Counted from the stretch's first letter, positions 1 to 59,525 are shown. The stretch: DNA of 59,525 nucleotides from a virus (IMGVR_UViG_3300045988_114220); one strand, 5' to 3'. A program made the numbers and translations. The notes: generated by a model not told the origin, from the letters alone.

Positions 1-55
1 ACATCGGTTTCCGCTCCGCTCTGCTGTTGTGCCGGGACAAGGTGAAAATCCTACG
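1..55. repeat. Terminal direct repeat identical to 59471..59525; this is circular-genome assembly overlap, not a biological LTR
   Basis: Exact 55/55 nt identity between window start and end. The repeat begins inside the DGR template repeat. Confidence 0.9.
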
Positions 56-12931: not shown

Positions 12932-12988
12932 ATCCGTATCTCTATTGTATCACATAATTTTTGAAAATGCAATAGGAGGTTGCAAAAA

Positions 12989-13954
12989 ATGGCGAACAAT
13001 TCTTTAACAATTACAGCGCAGTACCCGACGGACCGCTACAATCTGCTTGTTTCTATGCAGACCGTAGCGGAGATTGCGTCAATTCATAAGCCCGTGATGA
13101 ATGTCGTTTCTATCAGCGCGGACCTCAACGACAAGGAAATCTATGTGCAGGAAAAAGCCTATGGTAAAGACCCTGCAAAGTACGCTATCACCAAAAAGGG
13201 ACTCACGAAACTTATGAGGGCAGCGGGTATCAAAATCCTGTCCTCTCGCCCGGTAGTCCCCTCTACCTGTCAGAAATGTGCCAACATTAACGCGGGTATC
13301 GGGAAAGCCGTGAGGTGCGGTGCTTGCCCGAACAAGGACGTCAAATACGAAGTGCGTATCAGCGTTCCGCAGCTTACAGGCGAAAATATCGAGGTAGTCG
13401 CTCACAAGGAGATTATAGTTGACGATGTTACCGCCTCAATGACCGACAAGCAGAAAGCGGAGTTTCTGAAATTTAGAAACGAAATGTGCGAAACGAAAGC
13501 CCTCAACAGAGCGCTCCGAGCCGCTATGCAGATTAAAGGGACATATCTCATTGAGGAGTTTAAGAAGCCTTTTGTAGTCGCATACCTCGTCCCTAACCTT
13601 GACAATGCAGAGGTTAAGGAAAAGGCGGTGGAGGCTATGTTTTCCTCCTCTCACGAAATTTACGGCGGGAATGTGGATAACAACAACCGTCGGACCGTTT
13701 TCGTCGAAGACGACCCGGAAGACGCAAGCGGAGGCGAAGCACAGCAGACACCTATTGAACCCGCACCCGCACCGCAGGCGTTGCCGCCGGAGCGTCCGCA
13801 GGCAACAACCGCAAGACGCGCCGCACCGCCCGACCCGAATATTTGCACAGATTGCGGCAAGAAGATTTCAAACGGAGTTTCGGAGTATTCCATTGAGAAC
13901 TACGGAGCGCCGCTTTGTATGGACTGTCAGAAGAAAAGAGGAGGAAATCAGTAA
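12989..13954 (+). CDS. Hypothetical DNA-binding protein with internal and C-terminal zinc ribbons; possible single-strand annealing protein
   Basis: RBS AGGAGG. Cys clusters CQKC...CGAC and CTDCGKK...CMDC. It sits immediately upstream of the SbcCD fusion. Confidence 0.5.
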   Translation: MANNSLTITAQYPTDRYNLLVSMQTVAEIASIHKPVMNVVSISADLNDKEIYVQEKAYGKDPAKYAITKKGLTKLMRAAGIKILSSRPVVPSTCQKCANINAGIGKAVRCGACPNKDVKYEVRISVPQLTGENIEVVAHKEIIVDDVTASMTDKQKAEFLKFRNEMCETKALNRALRAAMQIKGTYLIEEFKKPFVVAYLVPNLDNAEVKEKAVEAMFSSSHEIYGGNVDNNNRRTVFVEDDPEDASGGEAQQTPIEPAPAPQALPPERPQATTARRAAPPDPNICTDCGKKISNGVSEYSIENYGAPLCMDCQKKRGGNQ

Positions 13955-14346
13955 TGACTACGATTATCACGCAGAACAGACAGCACATAGTCACCGCAGA
14001 GGTGATTGAGAGAATTTCAGTAGAAAAATCGAACGAGGGAAACGAAATTGTCGCACACACAATCAACGGCGTTGAAATTTCACTCGGTATTTACAAAAAG
14101 GCGGAAAACGCCGCAAAGGTTATGACATATCTTTCGTTCTGTATCACGGACGACGGAAAAACGATCGTTGTTCCCACAGAGGAAGTCGTTTCCAACGACA
14201 AGAAAATCGCCACCGATTTTATCGGAAAGGTTATGGAGGACATTATCAAAAAAGGACCGCCCGCAGGCGTTAAGGCCGAAAAGGTTACTATCGACCCCAA
14301 TCTGAAAGAATTTCTCGAAAAGCTGAAAGGCGGTGACAAAGAATGA
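13954..14346 (+). CDS. Hypothetical protein
   Basis: TAATG overlap with the upstream stop. RBS GAGGAGG. Confidence 0.5.
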   Translation: MTTIITQNRQHIVTAEVIERISVEKSNEGNEIVAHTINGVEISLGIYKKAENAAKVMTYLSFCITDDGKTIVVPTEEVVSNDKKIATDFIGKVMEDIIKKGPPAGVKAEKVTIDPNLKEFLEKLKGGDKE

Positions 14347-17300
14347 AGATACTCCATACGGGAGATTGGCATATCGGCAATTTTCCCGGTCCCGAAAGAA
14401 ACGGCGAAAATGTGAGATTTAATGACATCTGCCATTGCCTCGACACTCTTGTAGTCAAGGCGGAGGAAGCCGCCCCGGACTTTATCGTTATAGCGGGTGA
14501 TATTTTCCACCAAGCAAAGGTGTGGAGCGACCGAGGGCTGAAAGAAAACCGCACGGCAACGCACTATATCAGACTGCTTGAAAAAATCGCCCCGGTCATA
14601 ATCGTAAGAGGGACACCAAATCACGACAGCGAGCAGCAGTACGAAAACCTCGTGAGCGCATTCGAGGGCGACGACAGCTTACACATCATCACCGAGCCGC
14701 AGACACTCAAAGTATATGGGTATCACAGCGGCGTTTCGGTACAGATTGCGGGCCTGCCCGGATTTGACAGAGGCTTTTACCGTGCCAAGCACCCCGGACT
14801 CTCCAAAGAGGAGGAAAACGAGGTGTTCACGGAAGAACTCGAAAAAATCATACTCGGATTGAAAGCGAGCTGCGACAATTCAGCACCGACGGTTTTGGTT
14901 TCGCACTTCACTATCCCCGGTTGCAATATGGAGAGCGGTCAGACGGCATTTTTCAGCGCATTTGAGCCTGTTGTTTACCCCTCGGCACTTATGGCGGCAG
15001 GATTTGACCTCAACTGTTTCGGGCATATCCACCGCCCACAGCACATTGACGAAGCCGGACCGACATATTACTGCGGAGCGGTAAGCGCCCTCAACTTCAA
15101 CGACGAGGGGCAGGAACGCGGATTTTACATTCACGACATAGAGGCGGACGGCGTACACAGCACATTCTACGCACTCCCGACGCGAGAATACAAGACCATT
15201 CGGCTCGAAGACGAGGACGTAGCGAAGATTATCGGTGGAGATATGGAATGGCTAAACGCCGAGAACAATTACTCCGAGAAAGTAGTCAGAGTCCTTTACA
15301 GTTGCACCGACGAGCATAACAAAGCGCTCAACAAAGCGGCGCTCGAAACATTCTTGTATGAGGGCGGAGCATTTTGGGTGCAGGAAATCACCCCGGCGAA
15401 AATCTCTATCACGGTAAACAAGGAGGCTATGTCGGACGACAACTCCCCGGAAGAACACCTCCGCAGATATTTCGGTGACAAGGAATACAGCCCGGAGAGA
15501 ATTGCGGAACTTATCGACACCGCCGCACCATTTATTTCGGAGGCGGCAGAGGCAAAAGGAAGCGGAGCGCACACAGGCGTATTTATTCCCCTCAAAATTG
15601 AGGTGAAAAATTACCGAAACTACCGGGACGAGAGTTTTGACTATGACGGAATTCGTTTCTGCACTATCAACGGCGAAAACGGCGCAGGCAAATCCTCACT
15701 CTTTATGGACACTATGCTCGACGCACTTTTTGAAGAGCCGAGAGAGGGTGATTTGACCGGGTGGATTTGCAATGACCCGGACGTGAGAAGCGGCTCAATT
15801 CAGTTTACATTCAGCATTGGAGAAGCCACATACCGCGTAACGAGAACGCGCACAAAGAGCGGTAAAGCGACTCTGAATATCGCCGAACTCGTAGAGGGCG
15901 AATGGGAGGACCGTTCGGCGGAACGTTACAAGGACACGCAGGCGATTATTTCCGACATTATCGGAATGGATAGCCTCACGCTGAAAGCCTGCGGACTGAT
16001 TATGCAGGACCAGTACGGATTATTCTTGCAGGCCGACAAAGAGGCACGAATGAATATTCTCGGCAATATCCTTGGACTCGGAATTTACGACCGAATGGAA
16101 GACCTCGCCGCCACCGCGCTCACAAACAAAAACCGAGAAATCAAAAGTATTCTCGACAAGGTAGCCGACATCACAGCCGCCCTCCCGGACGCAGGAGAAC
16201 TCGCCGCCGCTATCGAGATAACGAAAAAAGATATTGCGGACCTGCAGAAACAGGCCGACGAAAAGGCCACAGAGATTGACGGCACGAAAGTACGGCTCAA
16301 CACAAAGGTTGAGGCTATGCAAAGGGCGGTCAGAATTCAAGCGGAAATTGCAACGCTTGAAATGAAGAAAAACACCGCTATCACAAACAAGACAACGCAG
16401 AGTCTTATTGCAAACGGAGCAGCCGCCGCATTGAGTGAGGAGGCACAGATAAAGGCCGGCGTAGCAGAATATGAGCAGTTGCTCGAACAGGAAAAGGCTC
16501 TTATTTCCGCACGGGACCGTCGGGACGACCTCGCCGAAAGAGGAAAGGCGCTCACAGACGAGGCAATCACTCTTTCCGCCGCAAAAGAAAAAGCAGAAAA
16601 GGTTCTGCAACAGACAACTGAACGCATTGCGACAATCAACTCTAAACTCTGCGACGCTCCTTTACTCGAAGAAAAACACGCCGAATACCTAAAAGTACAG
16701 GCGGCGGTCGAGGAAATGCAGAAATCAGCGGAAGAATATACCTCGCTCACCAAAGCGCTCGCCGAAGCGCAGGCAGAATATGCAAAGGTGGAGAGTAAAT
16801 ACGCCCTCGAAAAACGGACTATTGACGGCGAGATAGCCGCTTGCGAGGCGGAGGCTACATTACTTGAAAACAGCGATTGCCCGATTTCGGAAAAAGCCTC
16901 TTGTAAATTCCTCTCAAAAGCCATTGCCGCAAAAGAAAAACTCCCGGAATGGAAAGCAAACGCCGAAGAACTCGCTACAAATGAGTCAGAAGCGCTCGCA
17001 GAAAAGCAGAAAGCGGTCGATTTAGCGAGAGCGGCAGTTGAGGCAAGCAAGTATACCCCGGAAGCGTTAAACGCTTTGAGAGCCAATTTGAGCGCTTTGA
17101 GGGCATACGAGGAAAGATACGCCGAACTTGCTACGCTCAACTCGCAAAAGGAAACCGCCGACACGCTTTTGAAGACATACGCAGCTGCGGTCGAAGAAAA
17201 CGAAAAGAAACTCCGAAACACCGAAGCAGAGCGCGACAAGGTTATGGACGACCTCGCAAAAGCGCAGGAAGCCGCCGGAGGGTACGACGCTATATCCGCC

Positions 17301-18185
17301 AAAATCACCGCCGCAAAGGTGTGGTTGGAAAAAGAGAAAGAACTCCCGGCTATGCGCGAGCGCCTCGCCTCGGCCAGTGTGCGTATGGGGGAACTCGAAA
17401 CAGAAATCGCACAGTATGACGCAGATATAGCGCAGAAACGCGAGGAACACGCCGCCGAGAAAATTGCCTCGGAGGGTGCGGCAGACCTTGAAAAACTCGT
17501 GAAACAGGCTGACGAAATTATCAACGGACTGCGTACTGAAATTCAGCAGAAGTCAATGAGCCTCGGCGCACTCACCAAGCAGGCCGAAACAGCCGAGCAG
17601 AGCCGACAGACTGCAAAAGAGTTGCAGAAACAGACCGAGAGCCTTGCTCACACCGCCTCGCTTTATGAAGACCTCAAAAAAGCCTTTTCGCAGGACGGTA
17701 TTCCGCACAATGTTATTCGCTCACTTATTCCGATTTTCGAGGCAACGGCAACGGGAATACTCGGACAAATGAGCGGCGGCAAAATGAGTGTTGAATTTGT
17801 TACCGAAAAGGTGCTGAAATCCAACAACAAAAAAGAGGTCACGACCCTTGACATCATCATAAACGACTGCACGACCGGGCGACTCCCCTATATGAGCCGG
17901 AGCGGTGGAGAAAGAGTCAAGGCGGCACTTTCGGTCATTCTTGCACTTTCGGAGATAAAGAGTACAAAGGCCGGCGTACAACTCGGTTTCCTCTTTATTG
18001 ACGAGCCGCCGTTCCTTGACGCACAGGGCGTACAAGCCTACTGCGACGCTTTGGAAGCTATTCAGAGCCGCTATTCTGCATTGAAGATTATGGCAATCAC
18101 TCACGACCCGACAATGAAATCAAGATTTCCGCAGAGCGTGGATGTGGTGAAAACGGCAGACGGAAGCAAAGTTATTTATCAGTAA
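14343..18185 (+). CDS. Fused SbcD(Mre11)-SbcC(Rad50) nuclease/ATPase (1280 aa)
   Basis: The N-terminus has calcineurin-like phosphoesterase motifs (GDWH, GDIFH, GTPNHD, GHIHRP). A Walker A GENGAGKSS follows, then a Q-loop MQDQ, a long coiled coil, a signature SGGER, and Walker B/D-loop FLFIDEP with H-loop ITHD. Confidence 0.85.
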   Translation: MKILHTGDWHIGNFPGPERNGENVRFNDICHCLDTLVVKAEEAAPDFIVIAGDIFHQAKVWSDRGLKENRTATHYIRLLEKIAPVIIVRGTPNHDSEQQYENLVSAFEGDDSLHIITEPQTLKVYGYHSGVSVQIAGLPGFDRGFYRAKHPGLSKEEENEVFTEELEKIILGLKASCDNSAPTVLVSHFTIPGCNMESGQTAFFSAFEPVVYPSALMAAGFDLNCFGHIHRPQHIDEAGPTYYCGAVSALNFNDEGQERGFYIHDIEADGVHSTFYALPTREYKTIRLEDEDVAKIIGGDMEWLNAENNYSEKVVRVLYSCTDEHNKALNKAALETFLYEGGAFWVQEITPAKISITVNKEAMSDDNSPEEHLRRYFGDKEYSPERIAELIDTAAPFISEAAEAKGSGAHTGVFIPLKIEVKNYRNYRDESFDYDGIRFCTINGENGAGKSSLFMDTMLDALFEEPREGDLTGWICNDPDVRSGSIQFTFSIGEATYRVTRTRTKSGKATLNIAELVEGEWEDRSAERYKDTQAIISDIIGMDSLTLKACGLIMQDQYGLFLQADKEARMNILGNILGLGIYDRMEDLAATALTNKNREIKSILDKVADITAALPDAGELAAAIEITKKDIADLQKQADEKATEIDGTKVRLNTKVEAMQRAVRIQAEIATLEMKKNTAITNKTTQSLIANGAAAALSEEAQIKAGVAEYEQLLEQEKALISARDRRDDLAERGKALTDEAITLSAAKEKAEKVLQQTTERIATINSKLCDAPLLEEKHAEYLKVQAAVEEMQKSAEEYTSLTKALAEAQAEYAKVESKYALEKRTIDGEIAACEAEATLLENSDCPISEKASCKFLSKAIAAKEKLPEWKANAEELATNESEALAEKQKAVDLARAAVEASKYTPEALNALRANLSALRAYEERYAELATLNSQKETADTLLKTYAAAVEENEKKLRNTEAERDKVMDDLAKAQEAAGGYDAISAKITAAKVWLEKEKELPAMRERLASASVRMGELETEIAQYDADIAQKREEHAAEKIASEGAADLEKLVKQADEIINGLRTEIQQKSMSLGALTKQAETAEQSRQTAKELQKQTESLAHTASLYEDLKKAFSQDGIPHNVIRSLIPIFEATATGILGQMSGGKMSVEFVTEKVLKSNNKKEVTTLDIIINDCTTGRLPYMSRSGGERVKAALSVILALSEIKSTKAGVQLGFLFIDEPPFLDAQGVQAYCDALEAIQSRYSALKIMAITHDPTMKSRFPQSVDVVKTADGSKVIYQ

Positions 18186-18193
18186 TTCAAGTG

Positions 18194-18215
18194 CCGGGGA
18201 GCGTCCCCTCCCCGG
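18194..18215 (+). other. Perfect 8-bp hairpin after SbcCD; possible weak terminator
   Basis: ccggggag-cgtccc-ctccccgg. No U-tract follows. Confidence 0.3.
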
Positions 18216-18242
18216 CTACTGCGAAAGCGGAGGTGAAGCAAT

Positions 18243-19046
18243 ATGGGACGACCGAAAAAACAGACCGTCGATTATTTTCCTCACTTTGTTACAGGCTCTC
18301 GACGCACTATATCAATCCTTGAAGCAAGGTGGAAGAATGACGGGTATGCGTTTTGGTTTAAGCTGCTCGAATTACTCTGTATAACAGACGGACACGCTTT
18401 CAATCTGTCAACAGTAGCCAATCAAGAGTATTTATACTCATACACCAAAACAGACCCGGAAACGGCCGACAGCATTATAGAAATGCTTGTTGACCTCGAA
18501 AATATCGACAAGGAACTATGGGAGCAACACAAAATTATTTGGTGTCAATCGCTCGTGGATAATCTCAAACTCGTTTACGACAAACGAACGACACCAATGC
18601 CGAAAAAGCCGTTTTCCGTGGAGAATATACCCGAAAACCCGCCGAAAACGGACGAAAAACCTCAATCAGAGGACAATTCGGAGCGACAAAAGCCGAAACG
18701 AGGAAAGTCCGCCCCGAAAAAACCGCAGAAATCAAAACCCGACGAGCCGGAGAAAATCAAATATGCCGAATTCGTCCGTATGACCGAGGAGGAACACCGA
18801 AAACTCGTAGAGCAGTACGGAGAAAATGCGGCGGCAAGAATGATAACCGTCCTCGACAACTACAAAGGACAGAGCGGGAAGACCTACAAGAGCGATTACC
18901 GCGCAATCCTTAATTGGGTAGTGGAACGGGTGCAGGAAGAATTCAAGAAGAACGGAGGCGGAGGCTATGGCAGAAATGAAGTCCCTGCGGGACATAATGG
19001 GCCAAACCCCGGAGGCTTCAAGCCGTCGGGAGGCTTCAAAAAGTGA
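18243..19046 (+). CDS. Replication initiation/organiser protein (DUF4373/Lin1244-like N-terminal domain)
   Basis: Begins MGRPKKQTVDYFPHF.... The C-terminus is basic and low-complexity. Confidence 0.55.
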   Translation: MGRPKKQTVDYFPHFVTGSRRTISILEARWKNDGYAFWFKLLELLCITDGHAFNLSTVANQEYLYSYTKTDPETADSIIEMLVDLENIDKELWEQHKIIWCQSLVDNLKLVYDKRTTPMPKKPFSVENIPENPPKTDEKPQSEDNSERQKPKRGKSAPKKPQKSKPDEPEKIKYAEFVRMTEEEHRKLVEQYGENAAARMITVLDNYKGQSGKTYKSDYRAILNWVVERVQEEFKKNGGGGYGRNEVPAGHNGPNPGGFKPSGGFKK

Positions 19047-19926
19047 GAAAAACGAGCCGCTCTATTTGACGCCGGAGGAAGCGAAAGCAAAGGGGTACAG
19101 ATTTAAGTCACCTCCACCGCCTCCCGACAAGTGCCAATTCTGCGGCAAGGAAAATCCCCGTTCGGGAATTCCTTTTGGCGGCGAAATTCTTTTTTGGCAA
19201 CCGTTTCCGTCCCGTTGCGACTGCCCGGAGGCTGTTGAGTATTGGAAAAAGTACGACGCAGAACAGGCGGCAAAAAAGGAAGCGGAGCGCATTGCAGAGG
19301 AGCAAAAACGAAAGCGCGAGCGCATAGAACGGTTGCTCGGAAAGAGTGGTATCAAAAAGCGTTTTCAGCGCAGGACTTTCGATAACTTCAAGGCAGATAC
19401 GCCGGAGCGCCAAAAGTGCTACAAAATCGCAAAACGGTACGCCGACACATTCAAGCAGAGGTATGAAAACGGCGACGGGCTTTATATCGAGGGTACGAAC
19501 GGGACCGGCAAAACACACCTCGCCGCCGCAATCGCCTTGCAACTTATTAACGAGGGCGTCCCGGTAATTTGCAAAACCTCAACGGATATGCTCCTCGATA
19601 TAAAAAAGACATTTGAACGAGGCGACATAAGTGAGAGCGCTGTACTTGGAATTTACAAGTCGGCGGATTTGCTTATTATAGACGACCTCGGAAAGGAACA
19701 ATGCTCCGATTGGAGTATGTCAATCCTCTACTCTATCCTAAACGACAGGTACGAGGATATGAAACCGACCATTATCACTACAAATTACAGCGCGGAGGAC
19801 CTTATACGGGCGCTCACGCCCAAAGGCTACGACGACACCAAAATCGTCGCAATCATAAGCCGATTGAGGGAAACCTCGACGGTCATAACAATGGCGTGGG
19901 AAGACTACCGCACCGCGCAAGAATAG
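18967..19926 (+). CDS. DnaC/IstB-like AAA+ helicase loader
   Basis: Walker A GTNGTGKTHLAAAIA and Walker B LLIIDDLG. N-terminal zinc-binding CQFCGK...CDC. Confidence 0.8.
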   Translation: MAEMKSLRDIMGQTPEASSRREASKSEKNEPLYLTPEEAKAKGYRFKSPPPPPDKCQFCGKENPRSGIPFGGEILFWQPFPSRCDCPEAVEYWKKYDAEQAAKKEAERIAEEQKRKRERIERLLGKSGIKKRFQRRTFDNFKADTPERQKCYKIAKRYADTFKQRYENGDGLYIEGTNGTGKTHLAAAIALQLINEGVPVICKTSTDMLLDIKKTFERGDISESAVLGIYKSADLLIIDDLGKEQCSDWSMSILYSILNDRYEDMKPTIITTNYSAEDLIRALTPKGYDDTKIVAIISRLRETSTVITMAWEDYRTAQE

Positions 19927-21871: not shown

Positions 21872-22440
21872 ATTGCAGATACTTAAAAGGCTCGGAGCAT
21901 AGCCCCGAAAGCGTCGAATTTGATACAGAAAACACGACTTGCGTTGTGAATGTCGATTTACTGTTATGCGGAATAAAAAAATTCCCTTGCGGCGACGGAA
22001 GCGACAAAAACCTCTCTACCAAAGAGCGCTACGACATTCTGAATTTTGTTGAGCGGGAACGAGGGGAAATTATCCATAAAGCAGGTCCGAAGTCAATGGC
22101 GAGTTGGGAGAACAGTGGACTCGGCTCGTTTGACGATTATTTTGTTCCCGGAGATATTGTAACGGAAGATGTTTACGATAACTTTCTGAATATCCTGCCG
22201 CCTGCGACAATGTGGAAAAACCTACTACAAGTCGGAGGGTCGGTCGCATACGAAAAAGACCCGGAAACAGGAAAGTACAGAGCCACATACACGACTTTCG
22301 CAAAGGCTGACGGTCAATGGTGGTATGTCGGAGAGTGCTTTATCAGAGAAACAACAAACAGACGAACTCGACCCAACAAACTCTCATTGAGGATTTCAGA
22401 GGTCGAAAAAGAATTAAAAGCGGAGGCAGAAAAGAAATGA
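21868..22440 (+). CDS. Hypothetical protein
   Basis: ATGA overlap. Confidence 0.5.
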   Translation: MNCRYLKGSEHSPESVEFDTENTTCVVNVDLLLCGIKKFPCGDGSDKNLSTKERYDILNFVERERGEIIHKAGPKSMASWENSGLGSFDDYFVPGDIVTEDVYDNFLNILPPATMWKNLLQVGGSVAYEKDPETGKYRATYTTFAKADGQWWYVGECFIRETTNRRTRPNKLSLRISEVEKELKAEAEKK

Positions 22441-23780
22441 GAAAATACACCGTAAATGACTTCTTCTGCGGTGCAGGGGGGGTGGCGCTCGGATTTATTA
22501 AAGCCGGATTTGATGTGATTTGGGCGTGCGATTTTGACAAGCATTGCGTAAAGACCTACGCCCACAATGTAGGCGATTGGGTGCGAGAGGCTGATGTAAC
22601 AAAGATTACATACAAGGATATTCCGAAAGCGGACGGTTGGACTTTCGGTTTTCCGTGCCAAGACCTCTCCGTAGCCGGGAAGCAAGCCGGATTTCAATTC
22701 CGTTGCCTCGACTGCGGAACAGAATGGAAACACGAACACGAGGGGCTTTCCCCTATCTGCCCCAAATGCGGAGCAACGAACTATACGGCAATCACCCGAA
22801 GCGCTTGCTTTTTTGAGATTATGCGCCTACTCGACGAAACAGAGCGAAACGCCCCGGAGAATTACCCCTCGTTTCTACTCGCCGAAAATGTAAAGGGGCT
22901 GAAACCGTATATCCCCGTTTTGACAGAGCAGCTCGAACAGAGAGGTTTTGACGTGCATATTCAACTTTACAATTCAAAGTATTGGAATGTGCCGCAGAAC
23001 AGAGAGCGCTATTTTATCGTTGCCACGCCGAAAGGAAAAGGAAATTTCAAATTCCCGGAGGAACAACACGAATATGTGCCGAAACTCTCCTCCGCCCTCG
23101 ATAAAGAGGTGGACGAGAAATACTATATCCCCGACGAAAAGGCGCAGACGATTATCCTACAAGCGTTGCAGAAAATCGAAAATCTCGGCAATGCTCACCC
23201 GTGCATTACGCCGGACCGTCTGAGCAAGAGGCAGAACGGGCCAAGAGCAAAAGGCGACGAGGCGGAAATGTTCACGCTCACCGCGCAGGACATTCACGGA
23301 ATTATAATTCAAGAGCGCAAGGGCGTGAGCCGGGACGCAATGAAATACATTTCGGACAAGCTGCTCGAATTTGTCGAAAAGAAAGGATATATCCCAAAGT
23401 TTTTCAATCCGTATAACTGCTCGGATTGCGGAGAACTCGCACCGACGGCAACAACCGCTTGCGGCGGACTCACAACCTCGGCGACGGTACTCGTGTTCAC
23501 GGACAAGAACAGCGGAGAGCCTGTCATTATTCAGTTACCGAGAGGCAAAAACGGAGGCAACATTCACGACGTCGCTCCGACCTTAACCGCCAACGCGTAT
23601 GAGCAGAACAACTATGTTTGTGAAAATATCGAGGCGGTCGAGAGCAAAATCTGCAACGAGAGCGGATTGCTTGACCCGGAGGGGCAAGGAAAAACGCTCC
23701 GCGTTGGCGGGGGGGGGTCGCTGACAAAGAAGCACAATTATCAGCACATTTTAGTGAAACAGTCCGAGGCGGAGTCTTGA
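22437..23780 (+). CDS. DNA cytosine-5 methyltransferase, N-terminal portion (motifs I-VIII plus several TRD-like TL repeats); reading frame terminates after a G9 tract
   Basis: Motif I FFCGAGGVALGF, motif IV GFPCQDLSVAGK, ENV (motif VI) and QNRERYF (motif VIII). TRD-like segments MFTLTAQDIHG and VAPTLTANAY. A Cys4 ribbon is inserted after motif IV. Confidence 0.85.
   Translation: MRKYTVNDFFCGAGGVALGFIKAGFDVIWACDFDKHCVKTYAHNVGDWVREADVTKITYKDIPKADGWTFGFPCQDLSVAGKQAGFQFRCLDCGTEWKHEHEGLSPICPKCGATNYTAITRSACFFEIMRLLDETERNAPENYPSFLLAENVKGLKPYIPVLTEQLEQRGFDVHIQLYNSKYWNVPQNRERYFIVATPKGKGNFKFPEEQHEYVPKLSSALDKEVDEKYYIPDEKAQTIILQALQKIENLGNAHPCITPDRLSKRQNGPRAKGDEAEMFTLTAQDIHGIIIQERKGVSRDAMKYISDKLLEFVEKKGYIPKFFNPYNCSDCGELAPTATTACGGLTTSATVLVFTDKNSGEPVIIQLPRGKNGGNIHDVAPTLTANAYEQNNYVCENIEAVESKICNESGLLDPEGQGKTLRVGGGGSLTKKHNYQHILVKQSEAES
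23709..23717 (+). repeat. G9 homopolymer inside the MTase gene (frameshift hotspot)
   Basis: ggcgggggggggtcg. The +1 frame downstream (23718..23896) is open and encodes ...GIFVGVSPTLIATDYKGPHLVIED. Confidence 0.9.
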
Positions 23781-23888
23781 AAAAGCAACGTAACGGAAAA
23801 GGCATATTTGTAGGCGTTTCCCCAACGCTTATAGCAACGGACTACAAAGGTCCACATCTCGTAATTGAAGACAAGGAGGACGGCAAAA

Positions 23889-24548
23889 ATGAGTAAAGAA
23901 TATCTCGAATGCGTCGTAAATGACAGAGGCTTTGTAAGCAAGCCCGCGCAGATAACACCAATCGCACCAACGCTCCGAGCGCAGGATCACGGAAATCAGC
24001 CGAAAGTCGTTGAGGTGAAAAGCGAAGCAACGCCCGGAATTGAAGTAATCGGAATGCTTGAAAACAGCGGAACAACACAGCAGCACAATAACCGGGTACA
24101 CAGCGTAGACGGAATATCGCCGACGCTCACGGCCGTTTCGGGCGGCACACATCACATTAAAATCTTTGATATTTCTCGGTTTAGAGTCCGCAAACTCACG
24201 CCGACGGAATACGGTCGCTTGCAGGCTTTCCCTGTTGACGACGGTTGGGAACAGGTCGTTTCCGACAGCCAAGCCTACCACCAATTCGGCAACGCCGTTA
24301 CGGTGTCGGTAGTCGAGGCAATCGGACAGGCAATCGGGAGTTATCTTGACAGCATTTTCGGAGTTGAGGCGGAGGCAGTCGAAGTCACCGACTTGTCCGA
24401 CGCACCGCAGGAAATCAAAGAACAGATTATATCCAATGCCGAGGCGCTCGAAGCAAAGGAAGAAAAGGCACATACAAGCGGGCTTGAATTCTTCTCAAAT
24501 GAGGAACTGCTCGCAGAACTCAACCGCCGAATGACGGTACACGCATAA
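23889..24548 (+). CDS. DNA cytosine-5 methyltransferase, C-terminal portion (TRD-like segments plus motifs IX-X)
   Basis: RBS AAGGAGG then ATG at 23889. Contains IAPTLRAQDHG and ISPTLTAVSGG. Motif X is RKLTPTEYGRLQAFPVDDGWE...QFGNAVTVSVVEAI. Confidence 0.75.
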   Translation: MSKEYLECVVNDRGFVSKPAQITPIAPTLRAQDHGNQPKVVEVKSEATPGIEVIGMLENSGTTQQHNNRVHSVDGISPTLTAVSGGTHHIKIFDISRFRVRKLTPTEYGRLQAFPVDDGWEQVVSDSQAYHQFGNAVTVSVVEAIGQAIGSYLDSIFGVEAEAVEVTDLSDAPQEIKEQIISNAEALEAKEEKAHTSGLEFFSNEELLAELNRRMTVHA

Positions 24549-24561
24549 GGAGGACAAAGAA

Positions 24562-25623
24562 ATGAAACTATTTAGCACAGAACAGGTATCAAAGTATCAC
24601 CCTGACAAATACGCAGACCAAATCAGCGACGCTATCCTCACCGCTTGTTTGAGAGATGACAAAAACAGCCGTGTAGCCTGCGAGTGTATGGTAAAGGGAC
24701 GGACTGTTATTCTCGCCGGAGAAATCACCACTACGGCAAAGGTAGACTATGCGGAAATCGCAAAGAGAGTCGGAAAGAAACTCGGATATGAGGTTGACAC
24801 CGTAATTCAGCAGATTTGCACACAGTCACCCGAAATCGCCGGAGGCGTAAAGAGCGGCGACGAACTTTGTGCCGGGGACCAAGGCATTATGTTTGGATAT
24901 GCCTGTGACGACACAGAAAGCGGCCTGCCCTACGCTTTTGATATGGCGAATAGAATTATCCGTCTATTGGAAAAAGACACGACAGCGCCGAATTCAGCAC
25001 TCAAAGGGGACGCGAAATGCCAAGTAACCGTAGACACCGAGAAACCCAAAGACGACCGCAGCCTCGTAGAAATCCTCGTCAGCGTATGCCACAAAGAACA
25101 GTATAAGCTAAAAGACATCAGAGAGTATGTGCGAAACCTTATCAAATACAGCGGAATTGACATTGGAGAAGCAACACTCAATATCAACCCGGCAGGCGTA
25201 TGGACTTTCGGAGGACCGGCGGCAGATTGCGGACTCACGGGCAGAAAAATCGTATGCGACCAATACGGCGGATTTTGCGCTGTTGGCGGCGGAGCGTTCA
25301 GCGGAAAAGACCCGTCAAAGGTTGACCGCTCGGCGGCATATATGGCGAATTATATCGCCCGCGACCTCGTAAAAAATCACGGACTGAAATCCTGCGAGGT
25401 ACAGATTGCCTACGCCATCGGAGAAAGCGCGCCTATGAGCGTTTCGGTAAAATCCTCGTCCCCGGTCGAAGACGCATATTTCGCAAAACTTGTAGAGGAA
25501 AAATACGACCTCACACCGGCCGGCATTATCAAATACCTCGACCTCCTCAATGTGGACTACGAGAAACTCGCCGAGGGCTGTCATTACAGAATGGAGCTGC
25601 CGAAAAGAGGAACAAACAAATGA
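24562..25623 (+). CDS. metK: S-adenosylmethionine synthetase
   Basis: HPDKYADQISDAIL, GDQGIMFGYA and GGGAFSGKDPSKVDRSAAY are hallmark MetK motifs. RBS AAGGAGG. Confidence 0.9.
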   Translation: MKLFSTEQVSKYHPDKYADQISDAILTACLRDDKNSRVACECMVKGRTVILAGEITTTAKVDYAEIAKRVGKKLGYEVDTVIQQICTQSPEIAGGVKSGDELCAGDQGIMFGYACDDTESGLPYAFDMANRIIRLLEKDTTAPNSALKGDAKCQVTVDTEKPKDDRSLVEILVSVCHKEQYKLKDIREYVRNLIKYSGIDIGEATLNINPAGVWTFGGPAADCGLTGRKIVCDQYGGFCAVGGGAFSGKDPSKVDRSAAYMANYIARDLVKNHGLKSCEVQIAYAIGESAPMSVSVKSSSPVEDAYFAKLVEEKYDLTPAGIIKYLDLLNVDYEKLAEGCHYRMELPKRGTNK

Positions 25624-26582
25624 GGGAAAACAAATACACGGTTGCCGATTTAACGGCTATGCAAGCGTGGCCCCTTTCTCGGAAAATTCAAGTAACACAA
25701 ACGCGCATTATTGAGTGGTACATAAAAAACGAGGGGCGGGTCTATGTGTCATTCAGCGGAGGCAAGGACAGCACGGTTTTGCTCGACCTTGTAAGACGAA
25801 TATATCCAGAAGTCCCTGGCGTGTTTTTAGATACTGGGCTTGAATATCCCGAAATTCGAGATTTTGTCAAAACAAAGGAGAATATTGTTTGGTTAAAGCC
25901 CGAAATGAATTTCCGAAAAGTCATAGAAACATACGGCTACCCACTTGCAAGCAAAGAAATTTCTAAACAAATAAGCGCAGCCCGGCGAGGTGCGAAAAAT
26001 GCAATCCTCGCTTTTGACGGCAAAGATGTCGCAGGAAACGAAACCGAGCACAGGAAGCGATATAAAAAATGGAAATTTCTATACGAAAGCAATATTCCAA
26101 TTTCGGAAAAATGCTGTGAAGTTATGAAAAAGAAGCCTGCAAAGAAATATGAGAAAGAAACCGGGAGAAAGCCAATTATTGCGACTATGGCGGAAGAAAG
26201 CACTTTAAGAGCGCAGGCGTGGTTGAAGAACGGTTGCAACGCATTCGACGGAAAACGCCCCACATCACAACCTATGTCGTTTTGGACCGAGCAAGATGTT
26301 CTAACATACCTCAAAGAATACCATATACCGTATGCGCCTGTATATGGAGAAATCGAGGAAATAAACGGAGCATTAAAGACTACGCTATGCGATAGAACAG
26401 GGTGCGTATTTTGCGGTTTTGGTTGCCATTTAGAAAAAGAGCCGAACAGATTTCAACGGTTAAAAATAACTCACCCGAAGTTGTGGGAGTATTGTATGAA
26501 GCCGTGGGAAGCCGGAGGGCTTGGAATGAAAACACCGCTTGAATTCATAGGGGTAAAGACAGAAACGGAGGAAGAATTATGA
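25620..26582 (+). CDS. PAPS-reductase-like ATP pyrophosphatase (PP-loop) with C-terminal Cys cluster (IbrA/DndC-like)
   Basis: PP-loop VSFSGGKDSTV. C-terminal CDRTGCVFCGFGC. Confidence 0.8.
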   Translation: MRENKYTVADLTAMQAWPLSRKIQVTQTRIIEWYIKNEGRVYVSFSGGKDSTVLLDLVRRIYPEVPGVFLDTGLEYPEIRDFVKTKENIVWLKPEMNFRKVIETYGYPLASKEISKQISAARRGAKNAILAFDGKDVAGNETEHRKRYKKWKFLYESNIPISEKCCEVMKKKPAKKYEKETGRKPIIATMAEESTLRAQAWLKNGCNAFDGKRPTSQPMSFWTEQDVLTYLKEYHIPYAPVYGEIEEINGALKTTLCDRTGCVFCGFGCHLEKEPNRFQRLKITHPKLWEYCMKPWEAGGLGMKTPLEFIGVKTETEEEL

Positions 26583-57821: not shown

Positions 57822-58892
57822 ATGAGTAATTTTGACCTTACGGGGCTTGCCGTTAGTTCGGTATTCCCGACAAACAAAGTAATCACCGACGACAAGGGAC
57901 TCCCCTCTGTTATGGTGTATATTCCGAAATTCAAGATGTCCGACGTTATCACGGGCGGAAGCGACAGCGTACACCCGGCGTTTATCGTAGACGGCGTTGA
58001 GAAGAACGGTATCTACATCTCGAAGTATCAGAACAAGGTATACGACGGTCGTGCGTACTCTCTCCCCGGAGAAGACCCGGCCACAGGTATCAACTTTGAT
58101 AATTCTATCGCCCGCTGCACCGCAAAGGGTGCGGGGTGGCACTTAATGACTGCTATGGAATGGGGCGCTATCGCCTTGTGGTGCAAGAAAAACGGTTGGT
58201 TGCCCTACGGCAATAACAACTACGGCAAGGACACACGCGAGAGCCTCTATAAAGCAGTACCGACGCTCTACGGCTCTGACGGCAAAATTAACCGCGTAGC
58301 AACAGGTACAGGCCCGGTCGAATGGAGTCATAATAAGCAGCTCGACGGTATATACGACCTCAACGGCAATGTATTTGAATGGGTCGGCGGTATGCGTCTT
58401 GTCAAGGGTGAATTACAAATCCTTGAAAACAACAACGCCGCAAACGGAAGCAACTCGCAGACGGCGGCCTCGGCGCAATGGAAAGCGATTGACGGAACAA
58501 CGGGCGAACTCATTACGCCGAACGGGACCGGCACAACCGAAAACTCCCTCAAACTTGATTATGTATCAAGCAAGTGGAAGTGGATTACGGGTACTATCTC
58601 CTCGGCGACTGACGAGGCGCGCGGCTGTACTTTTGCCAATGTGAGCGCAGACGATAATGTTTGCGCGGAGGCAAAAGGACTCCTTTACGCGATTGCAATG
58701 CTACCCGATAGCACCTCGTTCGATTACGAGGGCGACTACTTCTATGCCAACAACGGCAACGCAGAGCGGTCGCCGAGTCGTGGTGGCAGCTGGGGCTACG
58801 GGACGTATGCGGGCGTGGTCTACTCGGATTTGGGTCACGGGCGCGCGAGTACGAGCATCGACATCGGTTTCCGCTCCGCTTTTTATGATTAA
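57822..58892 (+). CDS. DGR target: tail-fibre/receptor-binding protein with FGE/C-type-lectin fold and C-terminal VR2
   Basis: C-terminal RGGSWGYGTYAGVVYSDLGHGRASTSIDIGFRSAFYD. It is the last tail gene before avd. Confidence 0.85.
   Translation: MSNFDLTGLAVSSVFPTNKVITDDKGLPSVMVYIPKFKMSDVITGGSDSVHPAFIVDGVEKNGIYISKYQNKVYDGRAYSLPGEDPATGINFDNSIARCTAKGAGWHLMTAMEWGAIALWCKKNGWLPYGNNNYGKDTRESLYKAVPTLYGSDGKINRVATGTGPVEWSHNKQLDGIYDLNGNVFEWVGGMRLVKGELQILENNNAANGSNSQTAASAQWKAIDGTTGELITPNGTGTTENSLKLDYVSSKWKWITGTISSATDEARGCTFANVSADDNVCAEAKGLLYAIAMLPDSTSFDYEGDYFYANNGNAERSPSRGGSWGYGTYAGVVYSDLGHGRASTSIDIGFRSAFYD
58765..58880 (+). repeat. DGR variable repeat VR2
   Basis: Aligns to TR 59375..59490 with about 15 adenine-site and 2 non-adenine mismatches. 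Confidence 0.85.
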
Positions 58893-59374: not shown

Positions 59375-59490
59375 AGCGGTCGCCGTATCGTGGTGGCAAC
59401 TGGAACAACGGGACGAATGCGGGCGTGTTCTACACGAATTTGAATAACGGGCGCACGAATACGAGCAACAACATCGGTTTCCGCTCCGCT
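59375..59490 (+). repeat. DGR template repeat (TR); its 3' end is duplicated at 1..20
   Basis: Adenine-rich invariant copy of both VRs. It lies between avd and the RT. Confidence 0.85.
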
Positions 59491-59525
59491 CTGCTGTTGT
59501 GCCGGGACAAGGTGAAAATCCTACG

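What the first reader, a model, noticed from the sequence alone, without database searches (positions are those of the whole stretch)
14343..18185. Single-polypeptide SbcD(Mre11)-SbcC(Rad50) fusion with an atypical hook-like CPx6C
All phosphoesterase motifs and the Rad50 Walker A, Q-loop, signature and Walker B motifs are in one 1280-aa ORF. These proteins are normally encoded by two genes. The mid-coiled-coil apex contains DCPISEKASC (16877..16903) rather than the canonical CxxC zinc hook.
Basis: partly seen in the sequence, partly recalled or inferred. Interest (0 to 1): 0.6.

Follow-up and report, generated by a model that had tools for sequence, protein, structure and literature searches.

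The report
Fused phage Mre11–Rad50 with widened hook
A temperate gut-Clostridia phage encodes its DNA-end nuclease (Mre11/SbcD) and its ATPase partner (Rad50/SbcC) as one protein; that fusion was already described in 2011 and is common, but the zinc-hook motif at the tip of its long arm has a wider cysteine spacing that I could not find described.

Summary
ORF 14343..18185 (+) encodes 1280 aa with every Mre11/SbcD phosphoesterase motif, a helix-loop-helix, a short linker, then a complete Rad50/SbcC ATPase split by two ~260-residue coiled-coil arms.

It is not an assembly artefact. 153 of 160 independent loci keep one uninterrupted ORF, and full-length relatives extend down to about 29% identity.

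The fusion is not new. Yoshida, Claverie and Ogata (Virol J 2011) described Mre11/Rad50 fusions, including a Clostridium kluyveri plasmid protein that is a full-length 37.5% homologue of this one. The family sits in at least 144 species-representative genomes and at least 336 viral contigs.

The interesting residue is the hook. C846 and C854 are invariant, bracket the only break at the predicted coiled-coil apex, and replace the canonical CxxC with C-x7-C (x5, x6 and x11 in relatives). The variant also occurs in unfused relatives such as Moorella phage MTATph1, while a fused Listeria phage protein keeps CPTC. The two traits are therefore independent. I found no description of this hook variant.

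Most likely it is a homodimeric MR-type end-processing nuclease with an expanded zinc hook, serving phage recombination and replication. Zinc binding and the biological role are inferred, not shown.

The parts
14343..18185 (+). Whole fused SbcD(Mre11)-SbcC(Rad50) gene, 1280 aa plus stop
   Evidence: ORF listing. Pfam Metallophos 1-232, AAA_23 418-637, SMC_N 418-1273. PHROG SbcD-like 1-409 and SbcC-like 257-1279.
14343..15137 (+). Mre11/SbcD phosphoesterase (nuclease) domain, aa 1-265, motifs I-V
   Evidence: phmmer against solved SbcD/Mre11 chains (7dog E=1.7e-15; T. maritima Mre11 3qg5 E=1.8e-13). Motifs invariant.
15138..15446 (+). Region equivalent in position to the Mre11 capping domain, aa 266-368 (assignment inferred)
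   Evidence: Alignment to SbcD 7dog runs to aa 293. PHROG SbcD-like profile covers 1-409. Only aa 340-368 were modelled, at pLDDT below 55, so the fold is untested.
15447..15560 (+). Helix-loop-helix, aa 369-379 and 384-406: putative Rad50-binding domain
   Evidence: AF2 model of aa 340-1280: helices at model residues 30-40 and 45-67, pLDDT about 87-92. Position and length match the HLH described for fused proteins in PMC3175470. Docking onto the coiled-coil root could not be checked.
15561..15581 (+). Short fixed-length linker, aa 407-413, joining the Mre11 part to Rad50 strand beta-1
   Evidence: AF2 secondary structure. No indels at the junction in 121 homologues.
15582..16082 (+). Rad50 N-terminal ATPase lobe, aa 414-580 (Walker A 444-452, Q-loop 552-557)
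   Evidence: Family profile matches E. coli SbcC 6s6v_C (E=1.3e-10) and P. furiosus Rad50 3qkt (E=1e-7).
16083..16871 (+). Outgoing coiled-coil arm, aa 581-843 (263 residues)
   Evidence: AF2 helices. Low sequence conservation, 0.66 mean column identity. Foldseek top hit is Rad50 of 7zr1.
16872..16904 (+). Apex loop SDCPISEKASC, aa 844-854, bracketed by invariant C846 and C854: the hook-like C-x7-C
   Evidence: Only central non-helical segment in two AF2 models. Both Cys 100% conserved.
16905..17687 (+). Returning coiled-coil arm, aa 855-1115 (261 residues), starting with the conserved K/R-F-L motif
17688..18182 (+). Rad50 C-terminal ATPase lobe, aa 1116-1280 (signature 1185-1190, Walker B/D-loop 1216-1226, H-loop 1251-1255)
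   Evidence: NCBIfam TIGR00618 SbcC best stretch 885-1277. Foldseek hits to Rad50 heads.
12980..13954 (+). Conserved upstream partner gene, 324 aa, unknown function (phrog_13782), with a C-terminal CxxC...CxxC zinc ribbon
   Evidence: Homologue found upstream of the fused gene within the 3-kb flank in 136 of 163 loci, including C. kluyveri pCKL555A. No annotation obtained.
13915..14346 (+). Small ORF (143 aa) whose stop overlaps the fused gene's start; a 119-aa ORF sits at this position in L005-L007, and no such ORF in L002-L004
   Evidence: No family match.
18243..19926 (+). Downstream replication genes: replisome organiser (18243-19046) and DnaC-like helicase loader (18967-19926)
   Evidence: Pfam Lin1244_N and IstB_IS21; PHROG replisome organiser and DnaC-like loader. 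Same order in related prophages.

Best explanation
This is the single-chain Mre11-Rad50 (SbcDC) nuclease/ATPase of a complete, temperate, myovirus-type phage of gut Clostridia.

Architecture, shown by sequence and models: an N-terminal Mre11/SbcD phosphoesterase, a helix-loop-helix, a roughly 7-residue linker, and a full Rad50/SbcC ABC ATPase. The two lobes of the ATPase are separated by an antiparallel coiled coil of about 260 residues per arm.

Assembly and action, inferred from established Mre11-Rad50/SbcCD mechanism: two chains form the equivalent of the M2R2 complex. The ATPase heads engage on ATP and clamp DNA ends or hairpins, and the tethered Mre11 dimer cuts.

Hook, inferred: the helix-loop-helix grips the coiled-coil root as in unfused complexes. 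The two invariant cysteines at the apex, C846 and C854, pair with those of the second chain around one metal ion, most likely Zn. That would make an expanded zinc hook, C-x7-C in place of CxxC.

Role, inferred from gene order: it processes DNA ends for phage recombination and replication. Likely partners are the conserved upstream unknown protein, the phage SSB and the Holliday-junction resolvase.
For: Identity:
- Pfam, PHROG, NCBIfam and PDB matches to both halves.
- All catalytic motifs invariant.
- Foldseek top hits are Rad50 chains.

Real fusion:
- At least 120 90%-identity clusters, all 1276-1301 aa at 100% coverage.
- About 60 full-length 50%-identity representatives down to 29% identity.
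- 153 of 160 loci have an uninterrupted ORF.
- No indels at the junction.

Known precedent: PMC3175470, with a 37.5% full-length match to the C. kluyveri plasmid protein.

Hook:
- Both Cys invariant at the only apex break, between arms of 263 and 261 residues.
- Pair retained with spacings of 5-11 residues while the loop sequence varies. This points to the cysteines as the selected element.
- Two Cys per chain gives the same 4-Cys stoichiometry as a canonical hook.

Context:
- Strict synteny of integrase, repressor..., unknown, SbcDC, replisome organiser, DnaC-like loader.
- SSB and HJ resolvase present, and no other recombination exonuclease or annealase recognised among the roughly 36 ORFs scanned.
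Against: - No metal-binding, dimerisation or nuclease data exist.
- AF2 confidence at the apex is low (pLDDT about 56), and I could not read coordinates, so Cys geometry and helix-loop-helix docking are unverified.
- C-x7-C is not a classical zinc-knuckle spacing.
- The 7-residue linker is at the short end of the 9-12 residues estimated for cis docking, so docking may be in trans.
- The protein scores below NCBIfam's curated SbcC and SbcD cut-offs, so it is a divergent clade whose substrate preference may differ.
- The biological role rests on gene order only.
Confidence: 0.7

Rival explanations
1. The single ORF is an assembly or sequencing artefact: a missed frameshift or stop that joins two adjacent genes, sbcD and sbcC.
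For: Separate genes are the usual arrangement. Relatives such as Bacillus phage Mawwa and Moorella phage MTATph1 have two genes.
Against: - 153 of 160 independent loci from different samples and assemblers have one uninterrupted ORF of at least 1258 aa; 6 are cut by contig ends and only L169 is truncated.
- Protein clusters from 99% to 29% identity are all full length.
- The junction has no indels.
- Complete isolate genomes and the finished C. kluyveri plasmid carry the same fusion.
Confidence: 0.01
2. The apical Cys pair is not an inter-chain zinc hook. It may form an intramolecular disulfide or metal site that only stiffens the turn, or it may bridge two chains through another cofactor such as an Fe-S cluster.
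For: - The spacing of 5-11 residues is unlike CxxC.
- 29 of 130 relatives carry a third Cys two residues upstream (CGCP...), which hints at different coordination chemistry.
- The hosts are strict anaerobes, where Fe-S cofactors are common (host taxonomy).
- Hook loss and duplication are known in the related LmuB proteins.
Against: - A cytoplasmic disulfide is unlikely in anaerobic Clostridia (general knowledge).
- The position, the CP start, the 2-Cys-per-chain count and the flanking coiled coil all mirror canonical hooks.
- No additional conserved His, Cys or Asp ligand lies nearby.
Confidence: 0.17
3. The protein serves conflict, not recombination: a prophage-borne defence or exclusion nuclease related to Lamassu or other SMC-type systems, or a host-DNA degradation or anti-defence function.
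For: - Weak PADLOC matches to LmuB (E=4e-14, 50.7 bits), mad3 and AriA.
- Lamassu is proposed to derive from SbcCD.
- The gene lies in a prophage, and the upstream partner is unknown.
Against: - Matches to SbcC and SbcD families are far stronger: PHROG 327.7 and 132.8 bits, NCBIfam SbcC 121.5 bits.
- An intact Mre11 nuclease is fused in place of an LmuA-type effector, and the neighbours match no defence model.
- The gene sits in the early replication module next to the replisome organiser and helicase loader in all related phages. It is not in a variable moron or defence island.
Confidence: 0.12

Closest known systems
Mre11/Rad50 (SbcD/SbcC) fusion proteins of Yoshida, Claverie and Ogata 2011 (Virol J 8:427), specifically the 'Clostridium-Ruminococcus group' (C. 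kluyveri pCKL555A protein A5F9P1 / WP_011930361)
   Same: Same order (N-terminal Mre11, C-terminal Rad50) and similar length (1258 against 1280 aa). Full-length 37.5% identity in one tblastn piece. Helix-loop-helix plus a short linker, as that paper describes. The same conserved upstream gene. A non-canonical position relative to cellular SbcCD.
   Different: This copy sits in a complete integrase-bearing temperate phage, not a plasmid. The hook loop is one residue longer (C-x7-C against C-x6-C). The paper never mentions hook, zinc or cysteine.
Canonical bacterial SbcCD (E. coli, PDB 6S6V) and archaeal or T. maritima Mre11-Rad50
   Same: All nuclease and ABC-ATPase motifs, the coiled-coil hairpin, and a predicted Rad50-binding helix-loop-helix. 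Sequence and profile matches and fold matches.
   Different: One polypeptide in place of two. C-x7-C in place of the CxxC hook. Below the curated NCBIfam cut-offs: SbcC 121.5 against 478.5 bits, SbcD 73.1 against 77.65 bits.
Listeria phage LMTA-57 'recombination exonuclease' AID17555 (Herelleviridae)
   Same: Also a single fused SbcD-SbcC CDS in a phage.
   Different: Shorter (1009 aa), only about 21% identical, and it keeps the canonical CPTCG hook. It comes from a virulent phage family.
Moorella phage MTATph1 SbcC-like subunit WPA89628
   Same: About 31% identity to the Rad50 part and the same C-x7-C apex motif, PCNDKLKPSCPLL.
   Different: Not fused. SbcD is a separate gene three ORFs upstream. 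The protein is shorter (710 aa).
Phage T4 gp46/gp47
   Same: A phage-encoded Mre11-Rad50 pair used for end processing in recombination-dependent replication (background in PMC3175470). This is the functional model adopted here.
   Different: Two genes and a much shorter coiled coil. No detectable similarity appeared in the phage tblastn top list. Not aligned directly here.

Membership tests
Mre11/SbcD nuclease (calcineurin-like phosphoesterase) | Phosphoesterase motifs I-V (DxH, GDxxD/H, GNHD/E, H, GHxH) | tested here: met
   GDWHIG, AGDIFH, GTPNHD, VSHFT and GHIH are all present and invariant in 121 homologues.
Mre11/SbcD nuclease (calcineurin-like phosphoesterase) | Significant sequence similarity to structurally characterised SbcD/Mre11 | tested here: met
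   7dog SbcD E=1.7e-15; T. maritima Mre11 E=1.8e-13; E. coli SbcD E=6e-7. Profile search confirms this.
Mre11/SbcD nuclease (calcineurin-like phosphoesterase) | Reaches the curated NCBIfam SbcD subfamily cut-off (TIGR00619) | tested here: not met
   73.1 bits against a cut-off of 77.65. A divergent, non-canonical clade.
Mre11/SbcD nuclease (calcineurin-like phosphoesterase) | C-terminal helix-loop-helix that binds the Rad50 coiled-coil root | tested here: inconclusive
   A confident helix-loop-helix is predicted at aa 369-406. No coordinates were available to check docking.
Rad50/SbcC (SMC-like ABC ATPase) | Walker A, Q-loop, signature, Walker B, D-loop and H-loop split between N- and C-terminal lobes | tested here: met
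   All present and invariant.
Rad50/SbcC (SMC-like ABC ATPase) | Long antiparallel coiled coil inserted between the lobes | tested here: met
   AF2 shows continuous helices with one apex, arms of 263 and 261 aa. Foldseek top hit is Rad50 7zr1.
Rad50/SbcC (SMC-like ABC ATPase) | CxxC zinc hook at the coiled-coil apex | tested here: not met
   The apex has C846-x7-C854. Only 1 of 130 distinct relatives has any CxxC in the coiled coil, while all 130 have C-x(6,7,11)-C followed by x-F/Y-L.
Rad50/SbcC (SMC-like ABC ATPase) | Zinc-dependent dimerisation through the apex | not testable with these tools
   Needs metal analysis or multimer modelling. Only monomer AF2 without coordinates was available.
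Rad50/SbcC (SMC-like ABC ATPase) | Profile similarity to solved SbcC/Rad50; curated NCBIfam SbcC cut-off | tested here: inconclusive
   The profile hits E. coli SbcC (E=1.3e-10) and P. furiosus Rad50 (E=1e-7). TIGR00618 scores 121.5 bits, below its 478.5 cut-off.
Mre11/Rad50 fusion proteins (Yoshida et al. 2011) | Both domains in one ORF in the order Mre11 then Rad50, with homology to a published member | tested here: met
   37.5% identity over 100% of its length to the C. kluyveri pCKL555A protein.
Lamassu LmuB (defence SMC) | Operon with an LmuA effector and LmuC, and a strong LmuB model match | tested here: not met
   Only a 50.7-bit LmuB hit. The neighbours match no PADLOC model. The neighbours are replication genes.

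The most novel reading that the evidence does not exclude
The C-x(5-11)-C apex is not merely a stretched zinc hook. It would be a distinct dimerisation or sensing module, for example an inter-chain Fe-S or redox-sensitive metal bridge, possibly using the third Cys seen in about a fifth of relatives. It would define a large, previously unrecognised clade of phage and mobile-element Rad50 proteins whose arm-tip chemistry differs from every studied Mre11-Rad50 complex.
Probability: 0.12. Interest if true: 0.65.

Novelty: new variant of a known kind. Interest (0 to 1): 0.35.

Why it matters
The fusion adds little, because single-chain Mre11-Rad50 proteins were catalogued in 2011 and this work only shows how common one clade is in gut Clostridia prophages.

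The hook is the useful part. The field treats CxxC as the defining apex motif of Rad50/SbcC, to the point of calling the class "CxxC SMCs". A large, well-sampled clade that keeps two invariant cysteines but tolerates 5-11 residues between them is a natural experiment. It shows what the hook needs: the ligands, not the knuckle geometry.

A single-chain MR enzyme with fixed 1:1 stoichiometry might also be a convenient object for biochemistry and cryo-EM. Several cultured mouse- and human-gut isolates carry related prophages, so genetics may be feasible.

Tried and rejected
1. AF2 of residues 81-1280 (1200 aa) failed and was not counted. I replaced it with 600-1110 and 340-1280. Residues 1-339 were therefore never modelled.

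2. No model coordinates are exposed to scripts. I could not measure the Cys-Cys distance, the heptad register or helix-loop-helix docking.

3. Foldseek of the bare coiled coil has low specificity. Rad50 is on top, but TM-scores are low and other SMC arms follow.

4. My memory-based lead was that the upstream 324-aa protein (motif ETKALNRALRAA) is a Rad52/Sak/Erf-type annealase. Nothing supported it:
   - Single-sequence and profile searches against PDB sequences gave only weak zinc-finger hits.
   - Pfam per member gave nothing.
   - PHROGs gave only the unknown family phrog_13782.
   - PADLOC and NCBIfam gave nothing.

5. Literature searches for a C-x7-C or atypical Rad50/SbcC hook found nothing relevant. 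The ABC-ATPase classification paper that I recall (Krishnan et al., NAR 2020) is not held. Prior mention there cannot be excluded.

6. The defence-system reading was considered and set aside.

7. The frameshift reading was tested and rejected.

8. T4 gp46/gp47 was not aligned directly, because it did not appear among the listed tblastn hits.


Full report
**1. The observation**

ORF 14343..18185 on the + strand is an ATG-initiated reading frame of 1280 codons. Its start overlaps the stop of the upstream ORF (ATGA), which suggests translational coupling.

- Pfam finds Metallophos at residues 1-232, and AAA_23 and SMC_N from 418 to 1273.
- PHROGs finds the SbcD-like family over 1-409 and the SbcC-like family over 257-1279.
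- A single-sequence search of PDB chains hits SbcD/Mre11 structures: 7dog at E=1.7e-15 and T. maritima Mre11 at about 1e-13.
- A family profile additionally hits E. coli SbcC (6s6v_C, E=1.3e-10) and Rad50 from P. furiosus, T. maritima and M. jannaschii.

| Motif | Sequence | Residues |
|---|---|---|
| Mre11 I | GDWHIG | 7-12 |
| Mre11 II | AGDIFH | 51-56 |
| Mre11 III | GTPNHD | 90-95 |
| Mre11 IV | VSHFT | 186-190 |
| Mre11 V | GHIH | 227-230 |
| Walker A | GENGAGKSS | 444-452 |
| Q-loop | LIMQDQ | 552-557 |
| Signature | SRSGGE | 1185-1190 |
| Walker B/D-loop | FLFIDEPPFLD | 1216-1226 |
| H-loop | AITHD | 1251-1255 |

DCPISEKASC is residues 845-854 (nt 16875-16904).

**2. The fusion is real**

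- The word-indexed protein search returned at least 120 distinct 90%-identity clusters. All are 1276-1301 aa, all cover 100% of the query, and identity runs from 99% to 56%.
- The exhaustive HMMER search, with residues 81-1280 as query, found 8285 relatives at E below 1e-3 and 638 below 1e-30. About 60 full-length 50%-identity representatives align end to end down to 29% identity.
- I fetched 160 loci from species-representative genomes and IMG/VR. Of these, 153 carry one uninterrupted ORF of at least 1258 aa, 6 are cut by contig ends and one (L169) is truncated.
- The junction region has no length variation in 121 sequences.

An assembly artefact is excluded.

**3. The element that carries it**

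- The first 55 bases of the window equal the last 55, which is the signature of a circularly closed assembly. The window is therefore a complete genome of about 59.47 kb.
- It encodes small and large terminase, portal, head morphogenesis protein, tail sheath, tape measure, endolysin, a large serine integrase, a CI-like repressor, DNA methyltransferases, SSB and a Holliday-junction resolvase.
- Related copies lie integrated in bacterial contigs next to host genes, including cotJA/B/C.
- Carriers are mostly Lachnospiraceae, Oscillospiraceae and other Clostridia, including cultured isolates.
- Gene order around the fused gene is strict: integrase(-), repressor(-), cro-like..., conserved 324-328-aa unknown, an optional small ORF, the fused gene, replisome organiser (Lin1244_N), DnaC-like loader.

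**4. The fusion is already known**

Yoshida, Claverie and Ogata (Virol J 2011, PMC3175470) described Mre11/Rad50 fusions in these sources:
- Mimivirus R555
- several eukaryotes
- Deferribacter
- Bacillus phage 0305phi8-36
- a "Clostridium-Ruminococcus group" (C. kluyveri plasmids and Ruminococcus sp. 5_1_39BFAA)
- Anaerostipes caccae, reported separately

They noted that the fused forms fall outside canonical SbcCD/MR clades and retain capping and helix-loop-helix regions. They also estimated that a linker of 9-12 residues would span the roughly 28 Å from the Mre11 C-terminus to the Rad50 N-terminus.

The C. kluyveri pCKL555A protein (WP_011930361, 1258 aa) matches the whole of our protein at 37.5% identity in one piece. 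Our protein therefore belongs to that published group.

A cultured Listeria phage, LMTA-57, also carries a single 1009-aa fused CDS. In agreement with the "non-canonical" label, our protein ranks SbcC, Rad50 and SbcD models first in NCBIfam but stays below their curated cut-offs.

**5. The hook**

- In the 121-sequence alignment the two coiled-coil arms average about 0.66 column identity. A 30-residue island around the Cys pair reaches 0.82, with consensus LL-x-[ND]-S-G-C-P-x-x-E-x-A-[ST]-C-[KR]-F-L.
- C846 and C854 are 100% conserved, while the protein's other coiled-coil cysteines (C770, C834) are not.
- An AF2 model of residues 600-1110 has mean pLDDT 87.7 and is helical throughout, apart from short 1-5-residue interruptions in the arms. 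The only central break, 11 residues long, is at residues 844-854.
- An independent model of residues 340-1280 (pLDDT 74.9) places the same break.
- The arms on either side are 263 and 261 residues long, so the Cys pair brackets the apex exactly. Local pLDDT is low there (about 56), as expected for a site that needs a partner chain and a metal.
- Across 130 distinct proteins from the fetched loci, the spacing is x7 in 108, x6 in 21 and x11 in 1. None lacks the pair, 29 have an extra Cys two residues upstream, and only one has any CxxC in the coiled coil.
- Among 50%-identity representatives, x5 also occurs.

The variant is not tied to the fusion:
- Unfused ~850-aa relatives (P0259, P0260, P0264, P0266) have it.
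- The unfused SbcC-like protein of Moorella phage MTATph1 has it (PCNDKLKPSCPLL).
- The fused LMTA-57 protein has canonical CPTCG.
- The unfused SbcC of Bacillus phage Mawwa has canonical CPVCG.

The 2011 paper contains no occurrence of hook, zinc, CxxC or cysteine. Reviews and a recent Lamassu study treat CxxC as the defining hook, with only loss or duplication noted in LmuB. My searches for a C-x7-C or atypical hook found nothing. One classification paper that I recall could not be read.

**6. Mechanism**

Shown:
- Both catalytic modules are intact.
- A confident helix-loop-helix lies at residues 369-406, followed by about 7 residues and then Rad50 strand beta-1.
- The coiled coil is a long hairpin with the conserved Cys pair at its tip.

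Inferred from established Mre11-Rad50/SbcCD mechanism:
- Two chains form an M2R2-equivalent homodimer.
- ATP engages the heads on DNA ends or hairpins, and the tethered Mre11 dimer cleaves.
- The four apical cysteines coordinate one Zn.

The loop length varies while the cysteines are invariant. That argues the ligands are the selected feature. The linker is slightly shorter than the 9-12 residues estimated in 2011, so helix-loop-helix docking could be in cis with a frayed helix end, or in trans. I could not test this.

Role:
- The gene lies in the early replication module.
- Among the roughly 36 ORFs scanned, the phage has an SSB and an HJ resolvase but no recognisable RecT/Erf/Redβ or lambda-Exo/RecE.
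- I therefore favour end processing for recombination and replication, as for T4 gp46/47. This rests on gene order only.

**7. Rivals**

- Frameshift artefact: rejected (section 2).
- A non-zinc apex (disulfide, purely structural, or an Fe-S bridge) cannot be excluded by computation. The occasional third Cys and the anaerobic hosts keep it alive at low probability.
- A defence or exclusion role is weakly suggested by low-scoring LmuB, mad3 and AriA matches. These reflect general SMC-type similarity. The neighbours match no defence model, and the gene's conserved place is among replication genes.

**8. The conserved upstream gene**

- A homologue of window 12980-13954 lies upstream of the fused gene within the 3-kb flank in 136 of 163 loci, and in pCKL555A.
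- It has a conserved N-terminal domain of about 230 aa, a low-complexity linker and a C-terminal CxxC...CxxC zinc ribbon.
- My idea that it is a Rad52-like annealase found no support in PDB, Pfam, PHROG, PADLOC or NCBIfam searches.
- It remains an unexplained likely partner.

**9. Verdict**

- The fusion is a member of a published and very common class.
- The apical C-x7-C is a conserved clade-wide variant of the Rad50 hook that I could not find described. Its chemistry is untested.
- Interest is modest overall and lies in the hook, not the fusion.

Noticed in passing
window 58765-58880 (VR), 59375-59490 (TR), 27-1340 (RT), target ORF 57822-58892: A diversity-generating retroelement spans the circular junction. 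It has a 116-nt template/variable repeat pair at 85% identity. 15 of the 17 differences fall on template adenines. The variable repeat sits at the 3' end of a 356-aa ORF at the end of the tail-gene block, and a reverse transcriptase (phrog_1423, E=3e-139) follows.
   Followed up: partly
window 1-55 and 59471-59525: The first and last 55 bases are identical, which is the overlap signature of a circularly closed assembly. The window is a complete phage genome of about 59,470 bp.
   Followed up: yes
window 12980-13954: A 324-aa protein of unknown function (phrog_13782) with a C-terminal zinc ribbon is conserved upstream of the fused gene, within the 3-kb flank, in 136 of 163 loci and in C. kluyveri pCKL555A. 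It is a likely functional partner. No family, structure or defence model matches it.
   Followed up: partly
L001 (C. kluyveri pCKL555A, NC_009466.1, 59,182 bp): This 'plasmid' is almost the same size as the phage in the window. It shares the unknown-gene plus fused-SbcDC pair, and it carries HTH repressors and an ORF6N domain protein. It may be a phage-plasmid or episomal prophage. I did not look for structural genes.
   Followed up: no
L009 2495-5524 (Listeria phage LMTA-57, KJ591605.1): A cultured Herelleviridae phage has a single 1009-aa CDS that fuses SbcD and SbcC and keeps a canonical CPTCG hook. Other Herelleviridae in the hit list annotate two genes. I did not check whether this is a true fusion or a strain-specific read-through.
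   Followed up: partly
fetched loci L011-L170, hook region: 29 of 130 distinct relatives have a third cysteine two residues before the first hook Cys (for example DCGCPVENPECRFL). This could alter metal coordination.
   Followed up: no
window 18193-18216: A G+C-rich inverted repeat (CCGGGGAG cgtc CCTCCCCGG) lies just after the fused gene's stop. No T-run follows it, and the RBS and start of the replisome-organiser gene come next. It may be an RNA hairpin or attenuator.
   Followed up: no
window 22317-26582: A cluster of two DNA methyltransferase ORFs, a conserved unknown (phrog_1569) and a PAPS-reductase-like protein. It looks like a DNA-modification module.
   Followed up: no
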